Shown here piece by piece: positions 4,014 to 49,123 of a stretch of DNA of 64,000 nucleotides. The stretch comes from a virus: positions 32,001 through 96,000 of the IMG/VR virus record IMGVR_UViG_3300025598_000023; one strand, given 5' to 3'. The position numbers and the translations under genes are program-made. The notes beneath the pieces were generated by a model, which was given only the letters and a program-made list of their open reading frames with translations, searched no databases and was not told the DNA's origin. Within the stretch, counting starts at the first letter, position 1; each line of letters starts with the position of its first letter.

Positions 4014-4038
4014 TAATAGTCGCATATTATTTTACAAA

Positions 4039-27298: not shown

Positions 27299-27327
27299 TT
27301 GACATTACTATTAACATTTGATAAAAT
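27299..27327 (+). promoter_or_regulatory. sigma70-type promoter for the GT/radical SAM operon
   Basis: TTGACA-N17-TAAAAT with extended -10 TG; ATG 27334 lies 7 nt after the -10 (leaderless geometry). Confidence 0.8.
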
Positions 27328-27333
27328 TATCAC

Positions 27334-27654
27334 ATGACTCCAGAAGAACTGCGTGAACGGGCTATTGAAGCCTACAATCGTGATTTAGCAAAACAAAATA
27401 TTCTAACTGCCATGGAATCACGCATGACAGTAAATTATAATGATGGCGTATTCATCGTAACACAAGAACTTATAAGTTTCTTACATGCTTGGCAAGATGA
27501 ATTGATTTATATGCTTGATGCGTATGATGTTCCAATCCAAGTTGATGCCAACTATCTTAAAAAACTTTGCAAGCAACGCTGGCATGAAGTTATGAATGAA
27601 TTTGCGTTAGAATACGAAGAGTATAAAAAGATTCGTAATGCAAAACAACTCTAA
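27334..27654 (+). CDS. Hypothetical protein, first gene of modification operon
   Basis: 106-aa ORF overlapping the next gene. Confidence 0.7.
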   Translation: MTPEELRERAIEAYNRDLAKQNILTAMESRMTVNYNDGVFIVTQELISFLHAWQDELIYMLDAYDVPIQVDANYLKKLCKQRWHEVMNEFALEYEEYKKIRNAKQL

Positions 27655-28387
27655 AGGTTGTATCATATTTGCATACAACACAGATACTACTGACTATTTT
27701 AGTCAAGCAGTAGCGGCTGCTGACAGGGTAGAGCATTATCTTAACATACCTACAACTATTTTTACAAACGAACCAAGAACTTGTAAACACAATGTCATAC
27801 TTACGGAAACACCAGAAACCAATTATAAACTTAAAAAACTTTGGCTCAATCGTAGCCGAACACGTGCTTTTGAACTTTCACCGTATGATAAGACGCTAGT
27901 AATTGATAGTGATTACTTTTTATGCACCGATAATCTAAACTATCACTTGCAAAGTTCTAAACAATTTTTAATAGCAAGTGAAGTTTATGAACCACTTACT
28001 GGCAAACGCACAGTCTATAATCTTGGTAAAACACAAATACCTATGATGTGGGCAACGGTAATGATTTTTGATAAGAGTGATGAAGCACGATGCATATTTG
28101 AGTGTGCAAGTTATGCTGAAAAACATTATAATTATTATAGTGATTTCTATGGTTTTAAACGACATCCAATACGCAACGACTATATTTTTACAATAGCCTG
28201 TCATCTTATGGGTGGTTATGGCAGCAAGTCATATGCACTACAAAATTATCCACTTGTAAATTGTTATGATATGGCATATCATAGTTGGGATAATAATAAG
28301 TTAGTTTACAAATACGATAGCGGTAAAGTTTATGGCAATCGGTTACAAAATATGGATTTGCATCTTATGAACAAGGATCAACTATGA
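27638..28387 (+). CDS. GT-A fold glycosyltransferase-like protein (DxD)
   Basis: GCIIFAYN..AFELSPYDKTLVIDSDY..WATVMIFDK..RNDYIFTIA. Confidence 0.65.
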   Translation: MQNNSKGCIIFAYNTDTTDYFSQAVAAADRVEHYLNIPTTIFTNEPRTCKHNVILTETPETNYKLKKLWLNRSRTRAFELSPYDKTLVIDSDYFLCTDNLNYHLQSSKQFLIASEVYEPLTGKRTVYNLGKTQIPMMWATVMIFDKSDEARCIFECASYAEKHYNYYSDFYGFKRHPIRNDYIFTIACHLMGGYGSKSYALQNYPLVNCYDMAYHSWDNNKLVYKYDSGKVYGNRLQNMDLHLMNKDQL

Positions 28388-29229
28388 GTCGAGGATTTTT
28401 ATGCATTGCACAGAATAGTGGTGAAACAGATTATTTGCGCATGGCATATCTACAAGCATTAAGTTGCAAGATAACACAATATGCACATCGTAATAGTTTT
28501 AGTGTTATTGTTGATCGTGAAACTGCTGATTGTCTTGAACAAAAACACATTGATGTATTTGATAATATCATTGTTTTAAAAAATGATCTTGCACAAAACA
28601 GCAAGGTAAAAATGCAGAATGAATGTCAAGTTTTTAAGTATAGTCCTTATAAACAAACAATTAAAACCGAAGCAGATATGCTTTTTACGTCTAATTATGA
28701 TTTTATTTGGGATCATTGGGCTTTTGACAAGTTCCACTTTTGCACCCATGTTTATACATATGATGGACATTTAATCAAAGACCGTAGTCAGCGTCAATTG
28801 TTTGATGATAGTTTATTGCCTGATGTGTATAGTGCTTGGACATACTTTACATATGACTTGGAATGCAAAGAATTTTATGATACAATGCGTTTAATTATAG
28901 ATGATTGGGATTATTATCGTGACAGTTATCTTGTAAATTGTCGCTATGATGAACCACGAACCGATGAAGTATATGCGCTGGCTTGTAAAATATTAGATAT
29001 ACCTTATAAAGGAAGCGGTTATGGTTTCTTACATATGAAACCAAAATTACAAAGACTTGGATTACATCAGTCATGGACTGAACAGTTAGATTTAGATGTC
29101 AACGCAGACTTAAATGTAACTATTGGTGGTTATAGACAAAATAAACCGCTGCATTATGTAGAAAAAACCTTTGTTACAGACGAATTGTTAAGTAGATATG
29201 AATATGGATATAAGCGAACAAGAGATTAA
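28384..29229 (+). CDS. GT-A fold glycosyltransferase-like protein (paralog of previous)
   Basis: RGFLCIAQN..YLRMAY..SPYKQTIKTEADML..DVYSAWTYF..FLHMKP..LHYVEK; ATGA overlap. Confidence 0.6.
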   Translation: MSRGFLCIAQNSGETDYLRMAYLQALSCKITQYAHRNSFSVIVDRETADCLEQKHIDVFDNIIVLKNDLAQNSKVKMQNECQVFKYSPYKQTIKTEADMLFTSNYDFIWDHWAFDKFHFCTHVYTYDGHLIKDRSQRQLFDDSLLPDVYSAWTYFTYDLECKEFYDTMRLIIDDWDYYRDSYLVNCRYDEPRTDEVYALACKILDIPYKGSGYGFLHMKPKLQRLGLHQSWTEQLDLDVNADLNVTIGGYRQNKPLHYVEKTFVTDELLSRYEYGYKRTRD

Positions 29230-29428
29230 AGCGTGGTGGGATGAGTTTGAACGTGAACTTGCTACTATGGTTAAACCAAATGATCCAAATCCACCGCCAA
29301 AACCAAGTATGGAACCACCTAGACTACCTTCTTGGAAACGTGGCAACACATATTACACATTGGCAAATGACCGCCAGTTTCCTGTAGAACCCGAACACCC
29401 TAACGCCGTAGGCTGGAATTATGACTGA
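29198..29428 (+). CDS. Small Pro-rich hypothetical protein
   Basis: 76-aa ORF that fills the gap and overlaps both neighbours. Confidence 0.5.
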   Translation: MNMDISEQEIKAWWDEFERELATMVKPNDPNPPPKPSMEPPRLPSWKRGNTYYTLANDRQFPVEPEHPNAVGWNYD

Positions 29429-30359
29429 ATTAATTGATATAAGTGAGTTAGATTGTATTTTTTTGAGTTACAAAGAACCAAATGCTGATAGTAATTGGGC
29501 ATATTTGCGTTCTTTTGTCCCGTGGGCTAAACGTGTGCATGGCATAGAAGGCAGTGATGCAGCGCATAAAGCTGCCGCTGCTGTTAGTGAAACCGAACGT
29601 TTTATTTTGATTGATGGTGATAATCAACCAAATCCAGAGTTTTTTAATCAACAGTTGCGCATTAATCAAACAAATGACCGTTGCGTATTTCGTTGGCGCG
29701 CTAGGAATGTAATAAACGGTCTTTGTTATGGCAACGGTGGGATCAGCAGTTGGACAAAAACTTTTGTAAACAATATGCGAACACATGAAGCCAGTGAAGG
29801 CGATGCCGACACTGTTGTAGAATTTTGCTTTGATGACAACTATTGGGCTATGCATGATGTTTGGAGTACTACTATTCCTAATGGTAGTCCACAACAAGCA
29901 TGGCAAGCTGGATTCCGCGAAGGAGTTAAACTTTGTCTTGACCGTGGTCGTCGTCCTACACCAGAAGAATTTGAAAGTGTTACATGGGTAGGCAATAGAA
30001 CTAATCTTGTTATTTGGTGCACAGTTGGCGCAGATGTAGATTATGGAAAACATGCCATTCTTGGTGCAAGACAAGGTGCTTATAAAACCATGTTTGATGA
30101 TAGTTGGGATTATACTGAAGTGCGTGATTTTAATAAACTTGACAAATTATGGAATAATAGTTTAGAATATAGCGATAAAGAAAGTGAAGGATTTGCTCGT
30201 ATTTTGCGCAACCGTTTAAACCTTGATATTGCAACATACAATGCAGAACAAAGCAAATGGTTTAAAAAGCATCAGCGAACATACCAGAATATTGATATTA
30301 TGTTACCAGAAAGAGACGTAGGAAATGTCATCAAAAGCGCAGCTAGACAACTCTGGTGA
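29421..30359 (+). CDS. Glycosyltransferase-like protein (GT-A, DxD)
   Basis: IFLSYKEPNA..KRVHGIEGSDAAHKAAA..RFILIDGDN..YGNGG..AWQAGFREGVKL. Confidence 0.65.
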   Translation: MTELIDISELDCIFLSYKEPNADSNWAYLRSFVPWAKRVHGIEGSDAAHKAAAAVSETERFILIDGDNQPNPEFFNQQLRINQTNDRCVFRWRARNVINGLCYGNGGISSWTKTFVNNMRTHEASEGDADTVVEFCFDDNYWAMHDVWSTTIPNGSPQQAWQAGFREGVKLCLDRGRRPTPEEFESVTWVGNRTNLVIWCTVGADVDYGKHAILGARQGAYKTMFDDSWDYTEVRDFNKLDKLWNNSLEYSDKESEGFARILRNRLNLDIATYNAEQSKWFKKHQRTYQNIDIMLPERDVGNVIKSAARQLW

Positions 30360-31764
30360 TGTCGCCACAGTAAATGTGGACAACACTCTTAAAAGTGATT
30401 TTTTATCTGCTGCTGAAAAGATGCAGTCAAAACTTGGTCATGCCCTTTGTCTTGCAAAGTGGCAACAAACTAGTTTGCATCTAACAACTGGTCATACAAA
30501 TAGTTGTTACCATCCACCACTACACAGGATTAATGTAGATGATCTCACCGATAACCCCAGTGCGCTACACAACACTGAATACAAAAAAGCGCAAAGACAG
30601 CGAATGTTACGTGGCGAACGTCCAGAAGAGTGCAGTTATTGTTGGCGAGTCGAAGCAACAGGAAACCTTAGTGATAGACACTACCGCAGTGGAGAGCCGT
30701 GGGCTGCCGATCATTACGATACAATTATTGCTAGCGACCCTAATACTTGGAATGTTAATCCTGCTTATGTAGAAGTTAATTTTAGCAATGTATGTAACTT
30801 ACAGTGCAGTTATTGCTCGCCACAATTTAGCAGTGCGTGGCAAAAGGAAATAAATGAGCACGGTGCTTATCCTACTTCTAACCTTCATAATAGTCCTACT
30901 TACTTTGGGGGTGATCGTAAACCTATACCGAATCGTGAAGTTAATCCTTATGTTGATGCGTTTTGGAGATGGTGGCCAGAACTCTACCCAAATCTAAAAC
31001 ATTTCCGTATGACAGGTGGTGAACCGTTGTTAGATAAAAACACATACCGTGTTTTTGATTATGTGTTAGATAATCCTAAAAAAGATTTGCATCTTAATGT
31101 CACTAGTAACTTTAGTCAAGATGAATATGTATTTGACAAATATCTAACTTACGTCAAACATATGTGTGGCAATGGTGTATTAGAACACTTTATGCAATTT
31201 GTTAGTATTGATGGTTATGGTGAACGTGGTGAATATGGTCGTCATGGTTTAGATTTTGAACTCATGAAAAGGAATGTAGAACGGTTTTTGACAGAAGTTC
31301 CTAGCCGCAATAGCGTGACATTTATTATTACAATGAATGTTTTAAATGTAACAAGCATACGTGAATTGCTGCAATGGATTACTGAATTGCGCAGCAAATA
31401 CAGCACGACCTATCAACGTATTTGGTTTGATACACCTATTTTGCGTGAACCAGCTTGGCAATGTATTGATATACTACCTGAAAGTTATGCTTGGTTTTTA
31501 CAGAACGTTGTTCATTGGATGCAACCACAAACTGAAACAGTAGATACTCGATTCAATGGATTTAAAGATTATGAAGTTGTGAAACTACAGCGTGTTGTAG
31601 ATTGGATGCACGAACATCGTCGTGAAGATAAAAAAACTATGGCAGACTTTTATCGCTTCTTTAATGAACATGATTCTCGTCGCAAAACTAATTTCTTAAA
31701 AATCTTTCCAGAAATGAGTGATTGGTATAACACTTGTAAATATTGGGCTGATAGCAATGTATAA
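30325..31764 (+). CDS. Radical SAM protein with N-terminal twitch domain (1)
   Basis: CLAKW..SCYHP..CSYCW, then CNLQCSYC and TGGEP. Confidence 0.9.
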   Translation: MSSKAQLDNSGDVATVNVDNTLKSDFLSAAEKMQSKLGHALCLAKWQQTSLHLTTGHTNSCYHPPLHRINVDDLTDNPSALHNTEYKKAQRQRMLRGERPEECSYCWRVEATGNLSDRHYRSGEPWAADHYDTIIASDPNTWNVNPAYVEVNFSNVCNLQCSYCSPQFSSAWQKEINEHGAYPTSNLHNSPTYFGGDRKPIPNREVNPYVDAFWRWWPELYPNLKHFRMTGGEPLLDKNTYRVFDYVLDNPKKDLHLNVTSNFSQDEYVFDKYLTYVKHMCGNGVLEHFMQFVSIDGYGERGEYGRHGLDFELMKRNVERFLTEVPSRNSVTFIITMNVLNVTSIRELLQWITELRSKYSTTYQRIWFDTPILREPAWQCIDILPESYAWFLQNVVHWMQPQTETVDTRFNGFKDYEVVKLQRVVDWMHEHRREDKKTMADFYRFFNEHDSRRKTNFLKIFPEMSDWYNTCKYWADSNV

Positions 31765-32785
31765 ATTTCCACTTTGGCATTGGCACATTGAAAATAGTAG
31801 TATTTGTAGCTTGCGTTGTCCTCGCTGCCCTCGCGCAGAAATTCCCGATACACTTGTTCAAACTAGTCTTGGTTTAGATTTTTTTAAGAAGAATTTTAAT
31901 CCAGAATTTATGCAAGACGTTTGGCAAATTAGTTTTTGTGGTGATGATGGAGACCCAATTTATGGTAAGGAATTTTTAGAAGTAGTTGAATATTTAAAAA
32001 CTACAAAACCTAATTTAAGTTTACGCATTGTTACTAATGGAAGTTTTAGGAACGAATCTTGGTGGAAAAAACTTTCTCATAACTTGAATCAATATGATGA
32101 AATTCATTTTAGTTTGGATGGATGGGATCAAGAAAGCAACGAAAAATACCGTGTCAATAGTGATTGGGATAGTATAACAACTGCTATAAAAACTGTCAGA
32201 GAAAATAGTAATATTATAATGACTTGGGCTGCAATTGCTTTTAAATTTAATCAGTATGATATTATTACTATGAAAGATTTAGCCGTTAAATGGAATTTTG
32301 ATATATTTCAACTTACCTACAGCACAAAGTTTGGTAGTAAGTATCCTAATTATAATACCGATGGAAAAGACGAGCTTGAACCAAATTCACAATTCATTGC
32401 AAAGGGACATAGGTTTAGTCGTGAAATAACGAATCTCACTGATAGAAAAATACTAGACAATGGTAAAAACCAAATAAATTTAGATTTATATCAAAACATT
32501 AATAATGTTAACGATATAATTCCACTTTGTAAGATTGGTAATAAAGGTCTTTATATTAGTAGTGAAGGATATTTTTATCCATGTTGTTGGATGGCAAATA
32601 GGTATAATCATACACGTTGGCAAGAGTTTCGTCAGCCACAATATAACTTGAACAAAAGAAACATAAGTGATATATTAGGCGATGAAATGTGGGACAATTT
32701 TTTTAATAATTTAAACAATTATGATGAATGTAAAAATAAATGCTGTTCACAAAATTTTAATGAGGGATATGCGACATCGTGGTAA
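31757..32785 (+). CDS. Radical SAM protein with C-terminal twitch/SPASM domain (2)
   Basis: CSLRCPRC, GDDGDP, TNGS, FSLDG; C-terminal PLC..GYFYPCCW..CKNKC; start moved to ATG 31757. Confidence 0.88.
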   Translation: MYKFPLWHWHIENSSICSLRCPRCPRAEIPDTLVQTSLGLDFFKKNFNPEFMQDVWQISFCGDDGDPIYGKEFLEVVEYLKTTKPNLSLRIVTNGSFRNESWWKKLSHNLNQYDEIHFSLDGWDQESNEKYRVNSDWDSITTAIKTVRENSNIIMTWAAIAFKFNQYDIITMKDLAVKWNFDIFQLTYSTKFGSKYPNYNTDGKDELEPNSQFIAKGHRFSREITNLTDRKILDNGKNQINLDLYQNINNVNDIIPLCKIGNKGLYISSEGYFYPCCWMANRYNHTRWQEFRQPQYNLNKRNISDILGDEMWDNFFNNLNNYDECKNKCCSQNFNEGYATSW

Positions 32786-34140
32786 GAAGCAAACGTCCAG
32801 ATGAATCTTTTTTAGAATATAAGCAGCGTATTCTTGATACTAAAAGTGCATCATTCTGTGGTGCTAAGTGGTATAATGCTACAATTTGGCTAGGTAGTGG
32901 GCAAACTACAAGCTGTCATCACCCACTGCCGCATCAAGTAAGTGTAGAACAAGTTTTGGCTAACCCTGCTGCATTGCATAATACTCCAGAAAAGAAACAA
33001 CAACGATTACAAATGCAAAAAGGTGAGCGTCCAAGTGGTTGCGAATATTGCTGGCGTATTGAAGATTCATCTCCTACTGCCATCAGTGACCGTCCTTATA
33101 AAAGCATGCTATATAGTGAAGAAGAACTAAACACTGCATTTAATACACTGTATAAATTAGATGTTAATCTTCGAACATTGGAGATAGCCTTTGACCGCAC
33201 TTGTAACTTTGCTTGCAGCTATTGCAATCCCGCTTTTAGCACTACTTGGGTTAAAGACATTAAAGTTAATGGACCATATACCAATCTGGTTAGTGATGGC
33301 CGCAATCATTTTACCCATCTACATGATAGTTCTCAGTTATATGGTTTCACTGACACTAATCCATATGTAGAAGCATTTTTTAAGTGGTGGGAAAGTGATC
33401 TACATAAGACACTACGTGAATTGCGTATTACTGGTGGCGAACCACTTATGAGTGGTCATACTTGGAAACTACTTGATTGGTTTAAATTAAATCGTGGCAA
33501 AAGTGAAACAAAACTAGCTATCAACAGCAATCTTGGCATGGATAATAAAAAGTTAAATGAATTTATTGAAGCTGTTCGTGATATTCCACACGTAGAAGTT
33601 TATACAAGCTGCGAGGCATTTGGTAGTGCAGCAGAATATATTCGTGATGGTTTAGATTATAACCAATGGTTTGATAATCTTGTTGCACTGCATAGCAGCG
33701 GTGTAGTTAAACAATTGCATGTTATGGCAACTATCAATGGTTTATGTTTGATGTCGCTTCCTAAATTCTTAAAACACATGATGGATTTTAAGATAGGACG
33801 AGGAAAAAGTTCTTTAACTTTTACGCTCAATATTTTACGTTTTCCTAGTTTCCAAAGTCCAACTGTTATGCCACACAATGTTCGTGAAAATTGTGCAGTT
33901 GAATTAGAAAAATTTTTAAATAGTTACGAACATAGTAATTATTTGCATCAAATGGAAATTGAACATATCAAAAGATTAATTGAATACCTTCGCAAAGTTG
34001 AAACACCTCACGAAGGTGCAAGTAATAAAAATGTGTTAGAAAAAGATTTTAAAAATTTTTATGAACAATATGATGTTCGTCGTAATAAAAATTTTATAAA
34101 AACATTTGCAGAATTGGAAAATTGGTATAGTGGCTTATAA
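32779..34140 (+). CDS. Radical SAM protein with N-terminal twitch domain (3)
   Basis: CGAKW..SCHHP..CEYCW; CNFACSYC; TGGEP. Confidence 0.9.
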   Translation: MVRSKRPDESFLEYKQRILDTKSASFCGAKWYNATIWLGSGQTTSCHHPLPHQVSVEQVLANPAALHNTPEKKQQRLQMQKGERPSGCEYCWRIEDSSPTAISDRPYKSMLYSEEELNTAFNTLYKLDVNLRTLEIAFDRTCNFACSYCNPAFSTTWVKDIKVNGPYTNLVSDGRNHFTHLHDSSQLYGFTDTNPYVEAFFKWWESDLHKTLRELRITGGEPLMSGHTWKLLDWFKLNRGKSETKLAINSNLGMDNKKLNEFIEAVRDIPHVEVYTSCEAFGSAAEYIRDGLDYNQWFDNLVALHSSGVVKQLHVMATINGLCLMSLPKFLKHMMDFKIGRGKSSLTFTLNILRFPSFQSPTVMPHNVRENCAVELEKFLNSYEHSNYLHQMEIEHIKRLIEYLRKVETPHEGASNKNVLEKDFKNFYEQYDVRRNKNFIKTFAELENWYSGL

Positions 34141-35419
34141 TTATAACGGTAAAGAACCAATCAAGATTGAAGTTGACCAATTAAGTAATAAGCACAAAGA
34201 GCTTATTTTTGAAAATAAAACATTTTGCATGTATCCGTGGATTCATCTACATGCCTTTCCAACTGGTGAAGCATATCCTTGTTGTAATACAGAGATGAGT
34301 GAAACTGTTGGTAATACACGTTATGATACTCTTGAAGAAATATGGCATAGCGCACCTATGCGTGATATTCGTAGTAAAATGCTTGCTGGTGAACATGTAA
34401 AAGGTTGCAACCGTTGTTATGAACAAGAACAAAACGGTTTCTTTAGTATGCGTATGAGTGCCAATAAACATTTTGGGCATCATATTACTTTAACTGACAA
34501 TCCTACACCACCAATGAAAATGATTTATTGGGATATCAGATTTTCTAACTTATGTAACTTAAAATGTCGTAGTTGTGGTCATATCTTTAGTAGTAACTGG
34601 TATGATGATCAGGTTAAGTTATTAGAATTAGAACAAGCTACTGCTGAAAGTTGGAAAACAAGAAATACAAGAATAAATTTTGCTGGAAAAACCGAAGATG
34701 ATATTTGGGAACAGCTAGAACCACAGATTGATAATCTTGAACAAGTATATTTTGCTGGTGGTGAACCACTTATTATGGAAGAACATTATCGTCTTCTCAA
34801 TGAACTGATTAAACGTGGTCGTAGTGATGTACGATTAATTTATAATACTAATTTTAGTCAGCTTACTTACAAGAAAACAAATGTGTTAGAATTGTGGCGT
34901 GAGTTTAATAGTGTCAGTGTTGGAGCAAGTCTTGATGCTATGGGTGCTCATGCTGAATATATTCGCAAAGGAACCAAGTGGTCGCAAGTTGAACAAAATC
35001 GTGAGCAAATGTTAAAGATTTGTCCTAATGTAGATTTTTACATAAGTCCTACCCTAAGCATTATGAACGCTCTGCACTTGCCTAAATTTCATCGTGAATG
35101 GGTGAATCGTGGCTTTTTAAAACCACAGGATTTAAATATTAATATACTACAAGACCCACCACATTATCGTATTGACGCATTGCCATTCCAGTATAAAGTA
35201 GATATACAAGAATTATATCTAGAGCATATTAAATGGTTAAAACCTCAAGATAAATTAACTCGTGCAACAATTGGTTTTGAAAGTGCAATTAACTTTATGA
35301 TGGCAGATGATAAATCAGATTTGTTGCCAAAATTTATTCAAAAAACCGCGCAACTAGATAAAATAAGAAATGAAAATATATTAGATGCAATTCCAGAGTT
35401 AGGGTATTTGTATGAATAA
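34130..35419 (+). CDS. Radical SAM protein with N-terminal twitch domain (4)
   Basis: CMYPW..PCC..CNRC; CNLKCRSC; AGGEP; YNTN; likely GTG start 34130. Confidence 0.9.
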   Translation: MAYNYNGKEPIKIEVDQLSNKHKELIFENKTFCMYPWIHLHAFPTGEAYPCCNTEMSETVGNTRYDTLEEIWHSAPMRDIRSKMLAGEHVKGCNRCYEQEQNGFFSMRMSANKHFGHHITLTDNPTPPMKMIYWDIRFSNLCNLKCRSCGHIFSSNWYDDQVKLLELEQATAESWKTRNTRINFAGKTEDDIWEQLEPQIDNLEQVYFAGGEPLIMEEHYRLLNELIKRGRSDVRLIYNTNFSQLTYKKTNVLELWREFNSVSVGASLDAMGAHAEYIRKGTKWSQVEQNREQMLKICPNVDFYISPTLSIMNALHLPKFHREWVNRGFLKPQDLNINILQDPPHYRIDALPFQYKVDIQELYLEHIKWLKPQDKLTRATIGFESAINFMMADDKSDLLPKFIQKTAQLDKIRNENILDAIPELGYLYE

Positions 35420-37908: not shown

Positions 37909-38122
37909 CATGATAGAAGATTGTGGTAAGTGCTATGAATGTCTTAAAAGTAAAACGATTAAGATGCGTTTTAAAGATGATAGTTATTATGATATGCCTA
38001 TAGTTAATACTCGCATGATACTTTGCGTGGAATGTGGCAATAAGCGTTGCCCACATGCTACCGACCATCGTTTTACGTGCACTGGAAGTAATGAGCCAGG
38101 TCAAATAGGAAGCCGATACTAA
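37901..38122 (+). CDS. Small Cys-rich (zinc-finger-like) phage protein
   Basis: CGKCYEC..CVECGNKRCPHATDHRFTCTGSNEPGQ; start GTG 37901 or ATG 37910; TAATG coupling to next gene. Confidence 0.65.
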   Translation: MNNMIEDCGKCYECLKSKTIKMRFKDDSYYDMPIVNTRMILCVECGNKRCPHATDHRFTCTGSNEPGQIGSRY

Positions 38123-42127: not shown

Positions 42128-43175
42128 CAATATATTCAAGTTCACTTTGTTTAAGTTGCGCAAAAACTGGCAAACTCAAACAAGTGGCTGCTAATTCTTC
42201 ACTACTTGGCAATTGTAATAAACTTTTATAAACTGGTTGCTGATGTAATGCTAAAGGAAATTGTAGTCCAGTTTCAATTCCATGTTCTGCTAGATACTGA
42301 CGTAAAACATCTCTGCTAGGTGAAACAATTACAAATTGATTCCATACATGATCGCTATACGGATTGGTAAGAGGTAATATAATTCCGCTGCCTGCAAGAT
42401 TTTCCAAATAATATCTTGCATTAATATCACGTTGTTTATTCCACTTTTTAAGAAATGGAATTTTTGCAGTAACTATTGCTGCTTGCATAGCATCAAGCCG
42501 TTCATTGTATCCAATGCCAGTATGAATATACTTTTCTGTTCGAGCATGGTCTCTGTAGTATCTAATCTTTTCGCATACCTCAACGGAGCCAGTAACAGCG
42601 CCAGCGTCTCCCATTGCACTTAAATTTTTACCAGGATAAAAACTATAACAAGTTGCATATACAAAATCATTGACATCAACTAGAGTGTTATAACATACTG
42701 CGCTTTGTGCTGCATCACGAATAAGCGGAATACCAACGCTTACGCTGCGCAGTTTTTCAATATCAATAGTTTGCCCATATAAATCAACAAATATTATAGC
42801 TTTTGTTTTTTCTGTAATTGCTGTGGCAACAGCATCAATATTAATTGTATAGTATTGATCTATATCAACAAAGATTGGAGTAGCACCAAGTTGGCTTACG
42901 ACTTCTGCGGTGCTCATAAAACTCATTGCTGGCACAATTACTTCATCGCCGCTGCCAATCCCCAAACTCAACAAAGATAAAAATAGTGCACTTGTTCCAC
43001 TGCTGGTTCCAGCACAATCTTTATTATCGGTATAATTTGCCCATGCAACTTCAAATTGTTTAACTGCATCTCCGCCAATAAAATTACTATTGGCAATACA
43101 ATTTCTTATAGCATTATCTATTTCATATTGACATTCTTTATATTCTGCATACAAGTTTGCATATGGTATTTTCAT
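42096..43175 (-). CDS. DegT/DnrJ/EryC1/StrS sugar aminotransferase, DesV/FdtB-like (C3)
   Basis: MKIPYANL..SGTSAL..GDEVIVP..DAAQS..SFYPGKNLSAMGDAGAV..NERLDAMQAA..LSLP; ATGA overlap with the DesII-like stop. Confidence 0.88.
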   Translation of the reverse strand: MKIPYANLYAEYKECQYEIDNAIRNCIANSNFIGGDAVKQFEVAWANYTDNKDCAGTSSGTSALFLSLLSLGIGSGDEVIVPAMSFMSTAEVVSQLGATPIFVDIDQYYTINIDAVATAITEKTKAIIFVDLYGQTIDIEKLRSVSVGIPLIRDAAQSAVCYNTLVDVNDFVYATCYSFYPGKNLSAMGDAGAVTGSVEVCEKIRYYRDHARTEKYIHTGIGYNERLDAMQAAIVTAKIPFLKKWNKQRDINARYYLENLAGSGIILPLTNPYSDHVWNQFVIVSPSRDVLRQYLAEHGIETGLQFPLALHQQPVYKSLLQLPSSEELAATCLSLPVFAQLKQSELEYIVSCIWNYNNS

Positions 43176-44545
43176 CCTCGTATCCTTACTGGTCCAATTG
43201 ACCAATCAATGCCATATTCTGCGTCATCTCGTGCTTGATTGATTAATAAACTTATTACATGGTCAAAAGCATCAAGAAATCCAACATCCTGTGGCAATGC
43301 ACGAATTTTCTTTTTATTGTTTACGAAAACTTTTGTAACTTCTTCAACTGATGAACCTGCGATATTTCCAATAATGTAACGATCACTGCCTGGTCTATCT
43401 AAAAATCCACTTTCGTGATAAACATAAACATTGCCTTTTACATCTACGGCAACTGAAACTTGTGGAAAACTTTCTGGAATAATTTCATCCCAATTAATCA
43501 TCCGCAAACTACCTACATTTTTATTATATTTTAACGGCTCAAGCGCATAACCTAAATCAAAATGGGTAGACCAGTTTTTTTTAAAATCATCAATAAGTTT
43601 GAATATATCCATTAACTCGCCGCGCTCGGCATCACTTATTGTACGAATATTTTGACTAAAATCTTCACGCAGTGTAACAAAATCTATTGGTGTTGCGCAT
43701 TGCTCGTTAATATAATTTATAATTTTTAAGAGTTCTTTAACATCATTTGCATGTCCTGGCAAAATAATCCAGTTTATACCAACTTTTGTTTTGGCAGCAC
43801 GTTTTTTAAATTCAATAATATTATTAATAATATGTGCAAAACTCTGGCGATTCTTTGTAACAGCATAAGCAGTGTCTTCACTAACGCCATATAAACTAAA
43901 TCTAACGGCTTCTAAATCTAACATACCAGGATGTTTATCAAGATAACGAGCAGTCATCATATTACCATTAGTATACAACTGCATATTATATCCACGTTGT
44001 GCACCATGCGTTATTATATCACCAAGGTATGGGTTTGTTAGTGGTTCAAGACCGCCGCTTATGCGAAATCTATCTTGCCAATTAACATCTGTTTGTGGGT
44101 CTTGGTCAATAATTTGATAAAAATAATCACGACCAATTTCTGCATATTTGTTTTCATATTTTGCAACAGGATTGCGTCCACAAAAACCGCAATAAAACAT
44201 ACAACTCAAACCAGTGTATAAACCAATACGATTTGGATACATCCAACGTCTTTCAATAGCAGATTGCAAAGTGTTGGTTTTTAACAATGGCATAATGGTG
44301 TTAGTCCAATATTTTGTTCCTACCCCATTATGCAAAATTCTATGCTGAGCATCATCGCTATTGCGAATTTCCTCATTAATTTTTTTATGATATTCAAGAT
44401 TAAAATTATATAACTTAGCAATGCTTCTTTGACTAATAAAAGGATCATCAGCAAGCATTTGTATAACTTTTTCTGCATCATCAGATAATGCATGATTTTC
44501 TATAATATCAGTTGTGGTATCTTTGTGTTTATAACCAAGTCTCAT
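43172..44545 (-). CDS. desII: DesII-like radical SAM NDP-4-amino-4,6-dideoxyhexose ammonia-lyase
   Basis: YWTNTIMPL, YPNRIGLYTGLSCMFYCGFC, SGGLEPLTNP, YTNG, RFSLYG, IDFVTLREDFS, DLGYAL, PQVSVAVDVKGNVYVYHESGF, RYIIG and FLDAFDHV occur in the same order as the Streptomyces DesII motifs I recall. Confidence 0.85.
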   Translation of the reverse strand: MRLGYKHKDTTTDIIENHALSDDAEKVIQMLADDPFISQRSIAKLYNFNLEYHKKINEEIRNSDDAQHRILHNGVGTKYWTNTIMPLLKTNTLQSAIERRWMYPNRIGLYTGLSCMFYCGFCGRNPVAKYENKYAEIGRDYFYQIIDQDPQTDVNWQDRFRISGGLEPLTNPYLGDIITHGAQRGYNMQLYTNGNMMTARYLDKHPGMLDLEAVRFSLYGVSEDTAYAVTKNRQSFAHIINNIIEFKKRAAKTKVGINWIILPGHANDVKELLKIINYINEQCATPIDFVTLREDFSQNIRTISDAERGELMDIFKLIDDFKKNWSTHFDLGYALEPLKYNKNVGSLRMINWDEIIPESFPQVSVAVDVKGNVYVYHESGFLDRPGSDRYIIGNIAGSSVEEVTKVFVNNKKKIRALPQDVGFLDAFDHVISLLINQARDDAEYGIDWSIGPVRIRG

Positions 44546-45657
44546 TATAATGAATTTATCACAGTTTGTATAACTGTGTCAACTTGTTCATCAGTTAAGT
44601 GCCAGTGACTTGGTAAACTTATAATACGTTCGTTATTAGTAATATATTCTGCATGTGGACACAATTGATAACCATAAGATTTTACAAATGGTTCACGATT
44701 AAGTGGTCTTGAATAATGGCTACTATATTCTATGTCGGCAGCCTTTAATGCTGCCTTGACACTATCTTGACGTAATGGTGCTATGCTAAATGAATAATAA
44801 TTCCATGTTCCCCATTGTTGTCGCAATGGTAAATCTAATGCTTTAGCATAATTTATAAATTCATTATAATAACGTTTGCAAATTGAAAGTTTTCTTGGTA
44901 AATGATCTTCATAGTAAGGAACTTTTGCTACAAGCGTAGACGCTTGTGTTGATAACATACGAAAGTTAAGACCAGGCAATTCTATTTGACCATAAGGACC
45001 ACCTTCAATTTTACCCATTGTGCATGTGCCATTTAATATAGATGGATGAATTGTTTTACTTACGATAGCACCACCGCCACTGCCGCCAAGATTCTTGAGT
45101 GGATTAAAACTTAAACAAATAGCATCAGCAATAGTTTGGTCATATTCGTTTGAACATAATCCAAAACTATGAGCAGCATCAATAATCCATTTTATATTAT
45201 GGTCATCGCACCATTTGCGAACACGGGTTAGATCAACGCCTTGACCATATAAATCAACAGTGATAAGAGTGCTTATTTCTTCACCATACTTGGCATACAT
45301 TTCATCAAGTAGTTCAATATCCAACAACCAACTACTATCAATATCAACAAAGGTTGGGATACAACCTACTGCCATGACTGCTTGTGCAGTAGCTGCATAT
45401 GTTAGTGCTGGCAACAACACTCTACTACCGCACTTTGTATATAGTGCCATAAGTGCAGCTATAAGTGAACTGGTTCCGCTATTAGTAAGTTCAACATGAG
45501 CATTATTATACTTTACACGAATATATCGTGCAACAGCATCGTGTGCATTACCACTATAAAATTGCCCACTTTTAAAAGCAGATTGCATACCACCAAGTAT
45601 GTAACCTTTACAATCTTCGTATTGTTCTTTAAGATTGTAATAATTTATTGATGCCAT
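44545..45657 (-). CDS. DegT/DnrJ/EryC1/StrS sugar aminotransferase (divergent; DesI-role candidate)
   Basis: NSGTSSL..LPALTYAATAQAV..VDLYG..IDAAHSFG..SFNPLKNLGG..ISLP. Confidence 0.85.
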   Translation of the reverse strand: MASINYYNLKEQYEDCKGYILGGMQSAFKSGQFYSGNAHDAVARYIRVKYNNAHVELTNSGTSSLIAALMALYTKCGSRVLLPALTYAATAQAVMAVGCIPTFVDIDSSWLLDIELLDEMYAKYGEEISTLITVDLYGQGVDLTRVRKWCDDHNIKWIIDAAHSFGLCSNEYDQTIADAICLSFNPLKNLGGSGGGAIVSKTIHPSILNGTCTMGKIEGGPYGQIELPGLNFRMLSTQASTLVAKVPYYEDHLPRKLSICKRYYNEFINYAKALDLPLRQQWGTWNYYSFSIAPLRQDSVKAALKAADIEYSSHYSRPLNREPFVKSYGYQLCPHAEYITNNERIISLPSHWHLTDEQVDTVIQTVINSL

Positions 45658-46507
45658 CTTCTAAACTTGTCTTTGGCGTGTAGCCAAGATATTGCACAGC
45701 ACGGCGAGTATCAAGCGCACCACGTTTTGGCATATCAAATGGTATGCCATCACCATATATAATTTTGCTTTGTGTTTTTGTCCAATCTCTTATTACATTG
45801 ATAGCATCTTGTAGTGTTCTTGCGCTTCCATAACTTACATTAGCTATAAAATTATGTGTGTCAAATAGTGCAGCATTTGTGATAGCCTGTGCTACATCTT
45901 CTACATATGTAAAATCTAATGTAGCATGTGGATCATCTACGTGGATTGTTTCTTGATTAAGAGCAGCTTTTATCCATTTAGAGATGACACGATTGCCATC
46001 ATCACGGTTACCATATACAGCAGTAGGACGAATGATTACCCATTTCTGTGCAATAATTCTAACAAGTTCTTCGCACATTTTTTTAGCCCTACCATAATCA
46101 TTGATAGGTTTAAGTGGTGTATCCTCTGCGATAGAGTCTTTCCAGTCACCATATACCATACTGCTGCTTATATAAACCATTTTTGCATTAGGGTATGTTG
46201 TTAATAGATGAATAGTGCTTTGAACTGTATTGCGCCAAGCAGACAAGTTGTCTTTGGAAAAAGTTGCTTGATTTGGTTCACCAGCGAGATGGATAATAAC
46301 ATCGACATCTTGAATAACAGTTTTGCTGCAATCAGCATTGATCCAATCATCATATGCAAATTCCATATAACGACCACGTTCCAAATATAAATCAGTAGTA
46401 ATATATCGTAAATCATCAATAATTGTAACACGATGATTAGCATCTATTAGACGTTTTACAACATGATGACCAATAAATCCAAATCCACCTGTAACTAATA
46501 CATGCAT
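45629..46507 (-). CDS. NAD-dependent NDP-sugar epimerase/dehydratase (extended SDR)
   Basis: MHVLVTGGFGFIG, IIHLAG, ISSSMVYG, YGRAK, RPTAVYG, DFTYVED; start moved to ATG 46507. Confidence 0.88.
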   Translation of the reverse strand: MHVLVTGGFGFIGHHVVKRLIDANHRVTIIDDLRYITTDLYLERGRYMEFAYDDWINADCSKTVIQDVDVIIHLAGEPNQATFSKDNLSAWRNTVQSTIHLLTTYPNAKMVYISSSMVYGDWKDSIAEDTPLKPINDYGRAKKMCEELVRIIAQKWVIIRPTAVYGNRDDGNRVISKWIKAALNQETIHVDDPHATLDFTYVEDVAQAITNAALFDTHNFIANVSYGSARTLQDAINVIRDWTKTQSKIIYGDGIPFDMPKRGALDTRRAVQYLGYTPKTSLEDGINKLLQS

Positions 46508-46508
46508 A

Positions 46509-47351
46509 TTACACCGCCATTTCTGCTTTGATTGTTGAATGAGATTGATAATTTTGTAAAATAATATTATCCATTTTTGCTGTCCAAATATCTGCAACAT
46601 TACTTAAATCTAATGTAGGATATGGATATGGTTCACGACCTAATAATTCTATAACTTGTGGGACATGATTGTTGTAGATATGAACATCGCCAAATGTAAG
46701 AATAAGTTCGCCAACTTCTGCACCAATTGTTTTGGCAATAAGATGTGTGAGTAGAGCATAACTTGCAATATTAAAAGGCACACCCAAAAACAAATCTGCG
46801 CTACGTTGATACATTTGGCAACTTAAAATATTTCTACGAATATAAAACTGCGCAAACATGTGGCAAGGTGGCAGAGCCATCTGATTTAATTCACCTGGAT
46901 TCCATGCAGTAATAATATGGCGGCGACCGTTGGGATCATTCTGCAAACCATCAATAAGATTTTTTAATTGATCTACTTCGACACCATCAGCACTACGCCA
47001 GTGACGCCACTGTACACCATATACACGACCCAGATCGCCATTATAAGAAGAATTTGGAAGCCAATAATCTGCGTTAGCATTTGCAGTCCAGATTGTTTTC
47101 TTGCTTTCATCTCGTGTTCCATATAGAATTTCTGCCAATCTTCTTTCATCACCGCTGCCTTCAATAAACCATAATAGTTCACTAACTACACTTTTCCAAG
47201 CAAGTTTTTTAGTCGTGATTGCTGGAAAACCATCTTGTAAGTTAAACCGTAACTGTTCACCAAATAAACTAATGGTTCCAACACCAGTTCTGTCTATAAC
47301 TTGCGGTCCAGTTAGTATAATTTTTTTACATAATTCATTGTAATTTTGCAC
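46509..47351 (-). CDS. thyA: Thymidylate synthase
   Basis: DRTGVGT, ELLWFI, GRVYGVQWR, MALPPCH, YQRSADLFLGVPFNIASY, DVHIY; likely GTG start 47351. Confidence 0.95.
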   Translation of the reverse strand: MQNYNELCKKIILTGPQVIDRTGVGTISLFGEQLRFNLQDGFPAITTKKLAWKSVVSELLWFIEGSGDERRLAEILYGTRDESKKTIWTANANADYWLPNSSYNGDLGRVYGVQWRHWRSADGVEVDQLKNLIDGLQNDPNGRRHIITAWNPGELNQMALPPCHMFAQFYIRRNILSCQMYQRSADLFLGVPFNIASYALLTHLIAKTIGAEVGELILTFGDVHIYNNHVPQVIELLGREPYPYPTLDLSNVADIWTAKMDNIILQNYQSHSTIKAEMAV

Positions 47352-47838
47352 GACGAGTCCATACTGAAAATATTTTATTCTTTCCATATGATTCATATTG
47401 CATATTGAAAGATTTTAATAACTCTACCACATCTATGCTAACATCGCAATTAAATTCGTCATAAAATGTTGTAAGATATAATTGCTTAAAAAGATGACTT
47501 GTACTTTCAATTAGTTTTGGACCACCAATTATCCATATATCTTTTTTAGGATGTTGTAATTGCAATACTTCTAAACTTTGTTCAATTGCTGCACCTGCTA
47601 TTACATCATGCGCTTTTGGGAAGTTTTCTACGGATTGATTAGTTACTACTGCACAATGACGATCTGGTAGTGGCTTTGGCATTTTTGGGTCTAGCCAAGT
47701 ATTACTACCCATTACAACTACATGACCACGTGTATTGCTACTGAACCACTCCATATCTTGTTTATCATGTGGCCATGGTAGAGTTCCATCTTTGCCCATT
47801 CCACCATTTAAGTCTACTGCAAAGATGGCTTTTATCAT
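47335..47838 (-). CDS. folA: Dihydrofolate reductase
   Basis: AIFAVDLNGGMGKDGTLPW..DMEWF..VVMGSNTW..KPLPDR..WIIGG. Confidence 0.92.
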   Translation of the reverse strand: MIKAIFAVDLNGGMGKDGTLPWPHDKQDMEWFSSNTRGHVVVMGSNTWLDPKMPKPLPDRHCAVVTNQSVENFPKAHDVIAGAAIEQSLEVLQLQHPKKDIWIIGGPKLIESTSHLFKQLYLTTFYDEFNCDVSIDVVELLKSFNMQYESYGKNKIFSVWTRRAKLQ

Positions 47839-49092: not shown

Positions 49093-49123
49093 AAAAAAGG
49101 CTCCGAAAATTTTTCGGAGCCTT
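49093..49123 (-). terminator. Intrinsic terminator after vWA gene
   Basis: AAGGCTCCGAAAA-t-TTTTCGGAGCCTT inverted repeat with minus-strand U6 tail. Confidence 0.85.

What the first reader, a model, noticed from the sequence alone, without database searches (positions are those of the whole stretch)
27299..47838. ~20 kb candidate glycan-building system: 4 GT-like genes, 6 radical SAMs and an unusual-sugar pathway next to the tail module
Seen: a gap-free (+) operon of GT-like and radical SAM genes meets head-on a (-) operon for nucleotide-sugar synthesis, immediately after the tail-fibre genes. Known: twitch-type radical SAMs such as BtrN are sugar/cyclitol dehydrogenases, and DegT enzymes aminate ketosugars. 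Inference: donor synthesis, tailoring and transfer form one system that attaches a complex glycan. Possible acceptors are the very Ser/Thr/Asn-rich virion proteins next door, phage DNA (anti-restriction/CRISPR), or the host surface (superinfection exclusion). No base-hydroxymethylase is visible in the window, which weakly favours protein or envelope glycosylation.
Basis: partly seen in the sequence, partly recalled or inferred. Interest (0 to 1): 0.85.

Follow-up and report, generated by a model that had tools for sequence, protein, structure and literature searches.

The report
Phage radical-SAM sugar-tailoring gene module
An uncultured T4-like giant phage carries, just behind its tail-fibre genes, a separately promoted operon of sugar-transferase-like proteins and six iron-sulfur radical enzymes that faces a desosamine-type amino-sugar pathway; the module is real and common in environmental phages, but what it decorates is still unknown.

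Summary
The window is part of a 111-kb fragment of a T4-like jumbo phage. After the fibre genes comes a tightly packed + strand operon. It holds a 106-aa protein, two GT8-like paralogues, a 312-aa protein of a very large phage-only family, five N-terminal-twitch radical SAM enzymes (NF033640), one SPASM radical SAM, a 368-aa protein and a 968-aa repeat protein. It converges on DegT, a DesII homologue, DegT and a GalE-like SDR. ThyA and DHFR at the right end are ordinary nucleotide genes. That makes seven radical SAMs, not six, and only two of the four "GT-like" genes have independent support.

The head of the operon (two GT8-like genes plus the 312-aa gene) recurs in 80 of 80 further phage contigs and in the cultured Ralstonia phage RsoM2USA. 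It is followed by 0-7 twitch radical SAMs and swappable sugar enzymes. A conserved sigma-70-type promoter starts the operon.

The best reading is one soluble system that builds and edits an unusual amino-deoxy-sugar glycan. The acceptor is unproven: virion protein is favoured, host envelope is possible, DNA is unlikely. This scan had already followed up the same module on other DNA. New here is the DesII plus DegT insertion.

The parts
27299..27327 (+). Sigma-70-type promoter TTGACA-N17-(TG)-TAAAAT. The ATG of the first gene lies 6 nt after the -10 box, so the transcript is possibly leaderless.
   Evidence: 11 of 12 match with an extended -10. The -35 and TGnTAnAAT boxes are invariant in 8 relatives while the spacer diverges.
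27334..27654 (+). 106-aa protein, first gene of the operon, function unknown
   Evidence: No family hit. Conserved at 51-98% in relatives and present in about 70 of 80 wider loci and in RsoM2USA ORF354.
27638..28387 (+). GT8-like (GT-A) protein a, 249 aa, with a DSD motif
   Evidence: Paralogue of the next gene. Profile A9 hits glycogenin-1/-2 at E 0.002-0.09. Invariant D92, D181, H242, K246.
28384..29229 (+). GT8-like (GT-A) protein b, 281 aa
   Evidence: Exactly two such genes occur in 80 of 80 wider loci.
29198..29428 (+). Small conserved ORF of 76 aa (100-120 aa in more distant relatives)
   Evidence: Conserved position and sequence in relatives. No family hit.
29421..30359 (+). 312-aa protein of a very large phage-only family. 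It has a predicted beta-alpha-beta N-terminus and an IDGDN motif. It is a possible GT-A, but this is unproven.
   Evidence: More than 7,900 homologues, none with a Pfam hit. AF2 model poor, pLDDT 40. Only a weak Atlas lead to PF00535. No PDB hit.
30325..31764 (+). N_Twi radical SAM no. 1. Its orthologue is the only N_Twi gene in RsoM2USA.
   Evidence: NF033640 at 348 bits. CxxxCxxC plus 4 N-terminal Cys. RsoM2USA ORF349 is 34% identical.
31718..32785 (+). Radical SAM with a C-terminal SPASM domain, variably present
   Evidence: PF04055 plus PF13186. Absent from L016, L017, L018 and L021.
32779..34140 (+). N_Twi radical SAM no. 2
   Evidence: NF033640 at 305 bits.
34106..35419 (+). N_Twi radical SAM no. 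3
   Evidence: NF033640 at 407 bits.
35412..36611 (+). N_Twi radical SAM no. 4
   Evidence: NF033640 at 347 bits.
36535..37908 (+). N_Twi radical SAM no. 5
   Evidence: NF033640 at 284 bits.
38122..39228 (+). 368-aa partner protein of unknown function. The confident model shows a cyclophilin-like barrel with an inserted helical bundle.
   Evidence: AF2 pLDDT 95. No Foldseek PDB match. VIA Z 7-8.8 to cyclophilins. One family member, P0241, is fused to an N_Twi radical SAM.
39221..42127 (+). 968-aa protein: eight ~72-aa aromatic-rich repeats followed by a C-terminal domain homologous to the 312-aa protein but without its DGD motif
   Evidence: Homologues range from 511 to 1,652 aa.
42096..43205 (-). 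DegT-family sugar aminotransferase a, which travels with DesII
   Evidence: PF01041 at 286 bits. 61% identical to the DegT next to DesII in L009/L010. Absent from G001 and G002.
43172..44545 (-). DesII-like radical SAM (NDP-4-amino-4,6-dideoxyhexose deaminase type)
   Evidence: TIGR04426 at 328 bits, below the cut-off of 450. E 1e-66 to solved DesII. CxxxCxxC at residue 115.
44545..45657 (-). DegT-family sugar aminotransferase b, the ancestral partner of the SDR
   Evidence: PF01041 at 177 bits. 90% identical in G002 and 43% in G001.
45629..46600 (-). GalE-like extended SDR. The real start is probably Met32.
   Evidence: PF01370 at 129 bits. It has SSS...YGRAK and no Thr-Asp-Glu dehydratase triad.
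46509..47838 (-). Thymidylate synthase and DHFR. They are neighbours in the same - strand transcription unit, not part of the glycan system.
   Evidence: NF002497 at 342 bits (cut-off 327) and TIGR03284 at 333 bits. PF00186 for DHFR.
49099..49121 (-). Intrinsic terminator hairpin (GGCTCCG...CGGAGCC plus a T run) that marks the upstream end of the - strand unit running down to 42096
   Evidence: Read directly from the sequence.

Best explanation
The + operon and the convergent - strand sugar genes form one soluble, cytoplasmic glycan-building and glycan-editing module.

Proposed steps, all inferred rather than shown:
1. A host NDP-hexose is taken up by the phage SDR and DegT-b and turned into an NDP-amino-deoxyhexose.
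2. In this phage, an inserted two-gene cassette (DesII plus DegT-a) carries that sugar on, desosamine-style, by radical deamination to a keto sugar and re-amination to a 3-amino-3,4,6-trideoxyhexose-type donor.
3. The two GT8-like transferases, and perhaps the 312-aa family proteins, attach sugars to an acceptor.
4. The five old, mutually divergent N_Twi radical SAM enzymes, the SPASM enzyme and the 368-aa partner then edit the product by C-H chemistry such as epimerisation, oxidation, deoxygenation or cross-linking.

The most likely acceptor is a phage protein, namely the Ser/Thr/Asn-rich fibres or the giant protein encoded just upstream. This is the weakest step.

What is shown: the identities of the enzyme families, their intactness, their conserved linkage and the conserved promoter.
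For: Linkage: the same gene order (fibres, 106-aa gene, two GT8-like genes, small ORF, 312-aa gene, N_Twi genes, 368-aa gene, repeat protein, then the convergent DegT/SDR/ThyA) is seen in 8 close relatives and in G001, G002 and G004. In 80 more distant IMG/VR loci, 80 of 80 have exactly two GT8-like genes, 46 of 46 full-flank loci have fibre homologues, and 45 of 46 have 1-7 N_Twi genes. The cultured phage RsoM2USA has the minimal form, ORF354-348, downstream of the virion proteins ORF361/359/356 (PMC8504454).

Glycan-type diversification: the sugar arm varies between relatives (DegT+SDR; SDR+DegT+203-aa gene; DegT+DesII+SDR; DegT+DesII+DegT+SDR). The variable slot after the 312-aa gene holds RmlC, UDP-glucose dehydrogenase, GDP-mannose dehydratase, SDR, carbamoyl-, sulfo-, FkbM methyl- and hexapeptide acyl-transferases.

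Intactness: all radical SAMs keep CxxxCxxC, and the N_Twi genes keep their 4 N-terminal Cys. The paralogues are only 22-29% identical to each other but 72-93% conserved across the close relatives (no. 4 falls to 54-56% in some), so each is under its own constraint.

Other points: no protein has a transmembrane segment. The operon has its own promoter, conserved in 8 relatives.
Against: No product or acceptor is known.

Two of the four 'GT-like' proteins have no demonstrable fold. The GT8 assignment rests on borderline E-values, with no Pfam hit.

The SDR lacks the 4,6-dehydratase triad. No nucleotidyltransferase is found in this fragment or in the complete relative, so the donor route is incomplete on paper.

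N_Twi arrays occur in bacteria without any of the phage GT-like, 312-aa or 368-aa genes. In one MAG they are fused to TPR repeats, which points to protein rather than sugar substrates.

The early-type promoter does not fit a simple 'late, with the virion genes' picture.

The adjacency to fibres could be inherited gene order at the late/early junction rather than a functional link.
Confidence: 0.5

Rival explanations
1. The chemistry is the same but the target is different. The module remodels the host envelope (LPS core, O-antigen or capsule precursors at the inner leaflet) early in infection. This would block superinfection or stop progeny from sticking to debris.
For: The sigma-70-type, early-looking promoter is conserved in 8 relatives. 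GT8 includes LPS-core transferases such as WaaJ and WaaO. This is the published reading for GT8 genes in the pelagimyophage host-recognition cluster (PMC7029224).
Against: The module has no membrane protein, flippase, polymerase, ligase or lipid-carrier transferase. It is far more conserved than the fibres, although hosts and their surfaces must differ widely between freshwater or marine phages and a Ralstonia phage. No experiment supports it.
Confidence: 0.2
2. The radical SAM array is a protein-modifying machine and not a sugar editor. The N_Twi enzymes, with the 368-aa partner, would install cross-links, epimerised residues or other C-H modifications. The targets would be a phage protein such as the 8 x 72-aa aromatic repeats of the 968-aa protein, or the fibres. 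The GT-like genes would act separately.
For: Dozens of N_Twi enzymes are fused to TPR protein-binding repeats in one MAG. The 368-aa family is fused to an N_Twi enzyme in P0241 and models as a cyclophilin-like barrel. Bacterial N_Twi arrays lack the GT-like genes. The repeat protein is aromatic-rich with variable copy number.
Against: No RRE-type domain and no conserved short precursor are present, and the 85-aa ORF at 37865-38122 is not conserved. The N_Twi count varies from 0 to 7 inside an otherwise fixed GT-like frame, and N_Twi genes sit among sugar-nucleotide enzymes. RsoM2USA has N_Twi no. 1 but neither the 368-aa nor the repeat protein. The cyclophilin match is only middling in Z.
Confidence: 0.15
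3. The two arms are unrelated neighbours. The - strand SDR/DegT/DesII genes would be an independent auxiliary metabolic cassette at the end of a nucleotide-metabolism operon. The + operon would do something else.
For: The arms lie on opposite strands in different transcription units. The - unit starts after a terminator at 49099-49121 and also carries ThyA and DHFR. DesII is absent from the complete relative G001.
Against: An SDR plus DegT cassette occupies exactly this convergence point in every relative whose flank reaches it, including distant ones such as L142 and L009-L011. In other relatives the SDRs and other sugar-nucleotide enzymes lie inside the + operon itself.
Confidence: 0.1
4. 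The module hypermodifies phage DNA with an unusual sugar to evade restriction or CRISPR.
For: The operon has an early-type promoter. It lies next to thyA and DHFR. Phage GTs that glycosylate DNA are well known (cited in PMC12619734).
Against: ThyA passes thymidylate-synthase equivalog cut-offs and is paired with DHFR. The complete 338-kb relative has only this one TS-family gene, so no dCMP or dUMP hydroxymethylase of that family exists to create the attachment point. No DNA-binding or base-flipping domain was detected.
Confidence: 0.05

Closest known systems
NCBIfam NF033640, N_Twi_rSAM (twitch domain-containing radical SAM protein)
   Same: Five genes here, and a sixth elsewhere in the contig, score 222-407 bits against a cut-off of 170. 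They have the N-terminal 4-Cys twitch and the CxxxCxxC core.
   Different: The family is catalogued but has no characterised member (no paper found). The nearest solved radical SAMs (BlsE, GDGT-MAS, viperin, SkfB) match only the core, at E 1e-5 or weaker.
Desosamine pathway DesI/DesII/DesV of Streptomyces venezuelae (DesII structures 8HZV/8HZY)
   Same: A DesII homologue (E 1e-66 over residues 72-453) is flanked by two DegT-family aminotransferases and sits next to an SDR.
   Different: It scores below the DesII equivalog cut-off (328 against 450 bits). There is no DesVI-type N,N-dimethyltransferase, no nucleotidyltransferase, and the SDR is GalE-like without the dehydratase triad. It is encoded by a phage. 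No homologue was found among 50,697 phage records, and only 5 related loci were found by close-relative pattern search in IMG/VR.
Host-recognition cluster of pelagimyophages and cyanomyophages (PMC7029224)
   Same: After a giant VrlC-like protein come tail fibres, GT8-type glycosyltransferases and radical SAM cassettes that differ between close relatives.
   Different: That paper describes the region only by annotation and reads it as host O-chain modification. It does not resolve the conserved GT8-pair/312-aa/N_Twi architecture, the promoter or the sugar arm.
Ralstonia phage RsoM2USA ORF354-348 (MG752970.1; PMC8504454)
   Same: It has the same order: 106-like, two GT8-like, a small ORF, 312-like, N_Twi no. 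1-like, then a second 312-like gene. These lie downstream of the giant protein and other proteins found in virions.
   Different: It has only one radical SAM, no 368-aa or repeat protein, and 29-39% identity. All the genes are annotated as hypothetical and none has been tested.
Phage-encoded virion glycosylation in mycobacteriophages, and capsid/fibril glycosylation clusters of giant viruses
   Same: Virus-encoded transferases and sugar-nucleotide enzymes, placed by structural genes, decorate virion proteins (Freeman et al. 2023, as cited in PMC12619734; otherwise from general knowledge).
   Different: Those systems contain no radical SAM arrays. The transferase families were not compared here. 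Virion glycosylation is untested for this module.
GT8 retaining glycosyltransferases (glycogenin, LgtC, WaaJ/WaaO)
   Same: The profile of the 249-aa/281-aa family aligns to the N-terminal nucleotide-binding half of glycogenin, including the DxD region. An invariant Asp, a later invariant His and a Lys fit a metal site.
   Different: There is no Pfam PF01501 hit. hhalign against WaaJ/WaaO is not significant. The fold was not modelled.

Membership tests
N_Twi_rSAM (NF033640) | HMM score above the curated cut-off of 170 bits | tested here: met
   348, 305, 407, 347 and 284 bits for the five + strand genes. A sixth gene at G000 97334-98392 scores 222 bits.
N_Twi_rSAM (NF033640) | CxxxCxxC radical SAM motif preceded by an N-terminal Cys-rich twitch domain | tested here: met
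   CxxxCxxC lies at residues 120-157, with four or five Cys upstream in each paralogue. PF13186 matches the N-terminus of nos. 3 and 5.
N_Twi_rSAM (NF033640) | Known substrate or reaction | not testable with these tools
   No characterised member was found.
DesII (TIGR04426, dTDP-4-amino-4,6-dideoxy-D-glucose ammonia-lyase) | Equivalog score of at least 450 bits | tested here: not met
   328 bits. It is therefore filed as a DesII homologue, not as DesII itself.
DesII (TIGR04426, dTDP-4-amino-4,6-dideoxy-D-glucose ammonia-lyase) | Full-length homology to structurally solved DesII, and a radical SAM motif | tested here: met
   E 1e-66 over residues 72-453 to 8HZV/8HZY. CMFYCGFC at residue 115.
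Desosamine-type pathway (DesI-DesII-DesV) | Two DegT-family aminotransferases flanking the radical SAM deaminase | tested here: met
   PF01041 at 286 and 177 bits on either side. Which one acts at C4 and which at C3 is not resolved.
Desosamine-type pathway (DesI-DesII-DesV) | NDP-hexose 4,6-dehydratase and nucleotidyltransferase supplying the 4-keto-6-deoxy precursor | tested here: not met
   The SDR has SSS...YGRAK (GalE-like) and no T-D-E triad. PF00483 is absent from G000 and from the complete relative G001. Host enzymes, or one of the other SDRs seen in G001, would be needed.
GT8 glycosyltransferase (PF01501) | Pfam gathering-score match | tested here: not met
   No hit for the 249-aa or 281-aa proteins, or anywhere in G000.
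GT8 glycosyltransferase (PF01501) | Remote homology to solved GT8 enzymes, and a DxD metal motif | tested here: inconclusive
   Profile A9 gives 19 glycogenin entries as its top hits at E 0.002-0.38. The nearest named Atlas clusters are PF01501/PF03407 at 0.95. The 249-aa protein has DSD but the 281-aa protein has EAD at that position. hhalign against WaaJ/WaaO is negative.
GT-A/GT2-like transferase (312-aa family and the C-terminus of the 968-aa protein) | Recognisable GT-A fold or family match | tested here: inconclusive
   No Pfam, NCBIfam or PDB hit. AF2 pLDDT 40 with a shallow alignment. Atlas gives only a lead at 0.87 to a cluster where 21% of members carry PF00535. The DGD motif is missing from the 968-aa paralogue.
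Phage DNA glycosylation (T4-type) | A dCMP or dUMP hydroxymethylase of the thymidylate-synthase family to create the sugar attachment point | tested here: not met
   The only TS-family gene passes thymidylate synthase equivalog cut-offs. There is one such gene per genome, including the complete G001.
RiPP radical SAM maturase systems | A conserved short precursor gene and an RRE-type recognition domain | tested here: not met
   The 85-aa ORF at 37865-38122 is absent from relatives. No peptide-maturase model scores near its cut-off. RRE domains were not searched for specifically.

The most novel reading that the evidence does not exclude
The N_Twi radical SAM enzymes, working with the 368-aa cyclophilin-like partner, carry out a so-far undescribed radical editing of a macromolecule-bound substrate. 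That substrate would be either a protein-linked glycan or the aromatic 72-aa repeats of the 968-aa protein or the fibres. The number and type of paralogues (0-7 per phage), together with the swappable amino-sugar cassette (here extended by DesII), would set a phage 'glyco-serotype' on the virion surface.
Probability: 0.15. Interest if true: 0.9.

Novelty: new variant of a known kind. Interest (0 to 1): 0.62.

Why it matters
Virus-encoded glycosylation is known, but no such system with an array of radical SAM enzymes has been characterised. The NF033640 family has no known reaction, although it is abundant in aquatic jumbo phages and in some bacteria.

This window shows three things. The module is a fixed frame with a swappable sugar cassette. 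One such swap brings a desosamine-type DesII step into a phage. A cultured Ralstonia phage carries the minimal frame, so the acceptor question can now be tested directly.

If the product sits on the virion, it would be a new layer of phage surface diversity relevant to host range, adsorption and immune or defence recognition. If it sits on the host, it would be a new superinfection-exclusion chemistry.

Tried and rejected
- Megablast of the whole interval against 50,697 phage records found no match.
- tblastn of DesII and of the 368-aa protein against phages found none.
- Pfam, PHROG and NCBIfam gave nothing for the 106-, 249-, 281-, 312-, 368- and 968-aa proteins.
- Shallow profiles against PDB gave nothing.
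- AF2 of the 312-aa protein with 7 sequences failed (pLDDT 40). A 35-sequence profile against PDB also gave nothing.
- hhalign of the GT8-like family against E. coli WaaJ/WaaO was not significant.
- The 368-aa model had no Foldseek match in PDB. BFVD returned only uncharacterised phage proteins.
- Profiles of the GT-like, 312-aa and 368-aa families found nothing next to bacterial N_Twi arrays. Pfam content of the bacterial neighbourhoods was mixed, with only a modest glycan signal.
- I considered ThyA as a hidden base hydroxymethylase and rejected it.
- I considered the 85-aa Cys-rich ORF as a RiPP precursor and rejected it because it is not conserved.

Full report
**Setting.** The window is bases 32001-96000 of a 111-kb IMG/VR virus record that CheckV rates 33% complete. 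It has a T4-type baseplate hub and wedge, a 4,665-aa giant protein, tail-fibre-like proteins and a family-B DNA polymerase. These mark it as a T4-like jumbo phage. A relative of 338 kb with terminal repeats is complete. No cultured phage matches the interval at the DNA level.

**Gene map.**
- The + strand carries, with overlapping or abutting junctions:
  - a 106-aa ORF (27334)
  - a 249-aa ORF and a 281-aa ORF
  - a 76-aa ORF
  - a 312-aa ORF
  - N_Twi radical SAM no. 1
  - a radical SAM with a C-terminal SPASM domain
  - N_Twi nos. 2-5
  - a non-conserved 85-aa ORF
  - a 368-aa ORF
  - a 968-aa ORF ending at 42127
- The - strand carries DegT-a (42096-43205), a DesII homologue, DegT-b, an SDR, thymidylate synthase and DHFR.
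- The two arms overlap by 32 nt.
- The interval therefore holds seven radical SAM genes. The whole fragment holds ten.

**Which assignments hold.**
- The five N_Twi genes score 284-407 bits against a cut-off of 170. All keep CxxxCxxC and four N-terminal cysteines.
- The N_Twi paralogues are only 22-29% identical to one another. Each is 72-93% conserved across the close relatives, with no. 4 falling to 54-56% in some. They are old paralogues under separate constraint.
- The DesII homologue matches the solved DesII structures at E 1e-66. It is below the equivalog cut-off (328 against 450 bits).
- Both DegT genes are clear.
- The SDR has a GalE-like SSS...YGRAK centre and lacks the Thr-Asp-Glu triad of 4,6-dehydratases.
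- No nucleotidyltransferase is present in this fragment or in the complete relative, so host NDP-sugars must feed the pathway.
- ThyA passes two thymidylate-synthase equivalog cut-offs and overlaps DHFR. The complete relative has only this one TS-family gene.

**The 'GT-like' genes.**
- The 249-aa and 281-aa proteins are paralogues (hhalign 91%).
- A 65-sequence profile of their family puts 19 glycogenin (GT8) entries at the top of the PDB list, at E 0.002-0.38. The match covers the nucleotide-binding half with the DxD region.
- The protein atlas independently names PF01501/PF03407 clusters as the nearest annotated neighbours.
- Pfam itself gives no hit, and a profile comparison with E. coli WaaJ/WaaO is negative. 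I therefore call them GT8-like, probable.
- The 312-aa protein belongs to a very large family: more than 7,900 hits, all 'hypothetical', on contigs up to about 370 kb.
- The last 240 residues of the 968-aa protein are its paralogue (97.6%).
- The fold of the 312-aa family remains unknown. The AF2 model was poor and a deeper profile found nothing in PDB.
- The 968-aa protein starts with eight ~72-aa aromatic-rich repeats. Homologues range from 511 to 1,652 aa.

**Synteny test.**
- Eight close relatives keep the whole + operon directly behind the fibre genes.
- Searching IMG/VR with the 312-aa family profile gave 493 confirmed hits, of which the best 80 were examined:
  - 80 of 80 have exactly two GT8-like genes
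  - 46 of 46 loci with full flanks have fibre homologues upstream
  - 45 of 46 have between one and seven N_Twi genes
- Three loci have no N_Twi gene and go straight from the 312-aa gene to a second 312-domain gene and the convergent DegT/SDR/ThyA.
- The slot between the fixed head and the convergence point is therefore variable. In relatives it also holds RmlC, UDP-glucose dehydrogenase, GDP-mannose dehydratase, SDRs, carbamoyl-, sulfo-, FkbM methyl- and hexapeptide acyl-transferases, an Asp/Asn hydroxylase and B12-radical SAMs.
- The cultured Ralstonia jumbo phage RsoM2USA carries the minimal frame (ORF354-348, 29-39% identity). It lies downstream of ORF361, 359 and 356, which were found in its virions.

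**The sugar arm is a swappable cassette.**
- G001 and G002 have only DegT-b plus SDR.
- G004 has SDR, a different DegT and a 203-aa gene.
- L009/L010 have DegT-a, DesII and SDR.
- The window has DegT-a, DesII, DegT-b and SDR.
- DesII plus DegT-a thus looks like a two-gene insertion between the repeat-protein gene and the ancestral DegT-b.
- DesII homologues are rare in viruses: none among 50,697 phage records, and five loci in IMG/VR by close-relative search.

**Regulation.**
- A TTGACA-N17-TGnTAnAAT promoter sits in the 36-nt gap before the first gene. Both boxes are invariant in eight relatives while the spacer varies. The ATG follows the -10 box by 6-7 nt with no Shine-Dalgarno sequence, which suggests a leaderless early transcript (the timing is inferred).
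- The fibre genes upstream instead carry xTAAATA boxes.
- The - arm belongs to a unit that begins after a clean terminator at 49099-49121.
- No protein of either arm has a transmembrane segment.

**Accessory proteins and bacterial relatives.**
- The 368-aa family has 552 clusters at 50% identity. It folds confidently (pLDDT 95) into something Foldseek cannot place. VIA-align gives middling matches (Z 7-8.8) to cyclophilin-like barrels with an inserted helical bundle.
- One member of the 368-aa family is fused to an N_Twi enzyme.
- In bacteria, N_Twi genes also form arrays. A Bacteriovoracaceae MAG has eight in a row, including 39-52% identical counterparts of each phage paralogue.
- An 'Elusimicrobia' MAG has dozens of N_Twi genes fused to TPR repeats.
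- These bacterial arrays lack the phage GT-like, 312-aa and 368-aa genes, and their neighbourhoods show only a modest glycan signal.

**Reading.**
- Shown: the families, their intactness, their linkage and the promoter.
- Inferred: a host NDP-hexose is converted by the SDR and DegT-b into an amino-deoxy sugar. Here DesII and DegT-a extend it to a 3-amino-3,4,6-trideoxyhexose-type donor. The GT8-like enzymes, and perhaps the 312-aa family, transfer sugars. The radical SAMs edit the product.
- The acceptor is open. I favour a virion protein for three reasons. The module is always placed by the fibres. All its enzymes are soluble. Glycogenin-type GT8 enzymes and other viruses provide precedent for protein glycosylation. 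Probability is roughly 0.35-0.4.
- Host-envelope remodelling fits the early promoter, at about 0.2.
- A protein-directed role of the radical SAMs is kept alive by the TPR and 368-aa fusions, at about 0.15.
- DNA modification is unlikely, at about 0.05.

**Known and new.**
- The literature notes GT8 genes and radical SAM cassettes in the host-recognition cluster of pelagimyophages, and T4-like marine genomes with 12 radical SAMs. It gives no mechanism (PMC7029224, PMC5332604).
- After finishing my own analysis I looked up this scan's notes. The same module has already been followed up on several other genomes with the same conclusion.
- Specific to this window are the DesII plus DegT-a insertion, the SPASM enzyme and the eight-repeat form of the 968-aa protein.
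- I rate it a new variant of a known kind (virus-encoded glycosylation), of good but not first-time interest.

Noticed in passing
window 1-64000: The T4 late-promoter octamer TATAAATA does not occur at all on either strand (0 found, 11 +/- 3 expected from shuffles). Structural genes instead have AATAAATA, ACTAAATA or CTAAATA boxes 20-30 nt before their start codons (at 4038, 23096, 24751 and 26367).
   Followed up: partly
window 7456-21453 (+): A single 4,665-aa ORF (VrlC-like giant structural protein, Ser+Thr+Asn 28%) lies between the baseplate wedge gene and the fibre genes. RsoM2USA ORF361, a virion protein, is a distant homologue (22% identity).
   Followed up: partly
window 50885-52342 (-): A 485-aa B12-binding-type radical SAM (weak matches to PhpK-type and RiPP C-methyltransferase models) lies outside the finding. 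A 32% identical copy sits among N_Twi genes on contig L022, which is binned as Flavobacterium but is probably phage.
   Followed up: no
L023-L037, L062, L067 (MAG CAIRTQ01, 'Elusimicrobia' bin): Dozens of tandem genes encode 540-1,130-aa proteins in which long N-terminal TPR arrays are fused to an N_Twi radical SAM domain. This is an extreme paralogue expansion of unknown meaning.
   Followed up: partly
L028 6049-18045 (Bacteriovoracaceae UBA6144): Eight N_Twi radical SAM genes lie in a row next to rplU and obgE. They include 39-52% identical counterparts of each of the five phage paralogues, which suggests the array moves as a unit between bacteria and phages.
   Followed up: partly
window 37865-38122 (+): An 85-aa ORF with 7 Cys overlaps the 3' end of N_Twi no. 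5. That gene is about 25 aa longer here than in relatives. The ORF is not conserved, so it may be a local frame artefact.
   Followed up: partly
window 49158-50414 (-): A 418-aa protein matches PHROG 1314 ('HNH endonuclease'). It is 88-92% conserved in relatives, unusually high for a homing nuclease, so the label may be wrong.
   Followed up: no
G001:C1 42400-50676 and 314395-315114: The complete 338-kb relative has four further SDR epimerase/dehydratase-family genes away from the module. One scores 238 bits and could be the missing 4,6-dehydratase.
   Followed up: no
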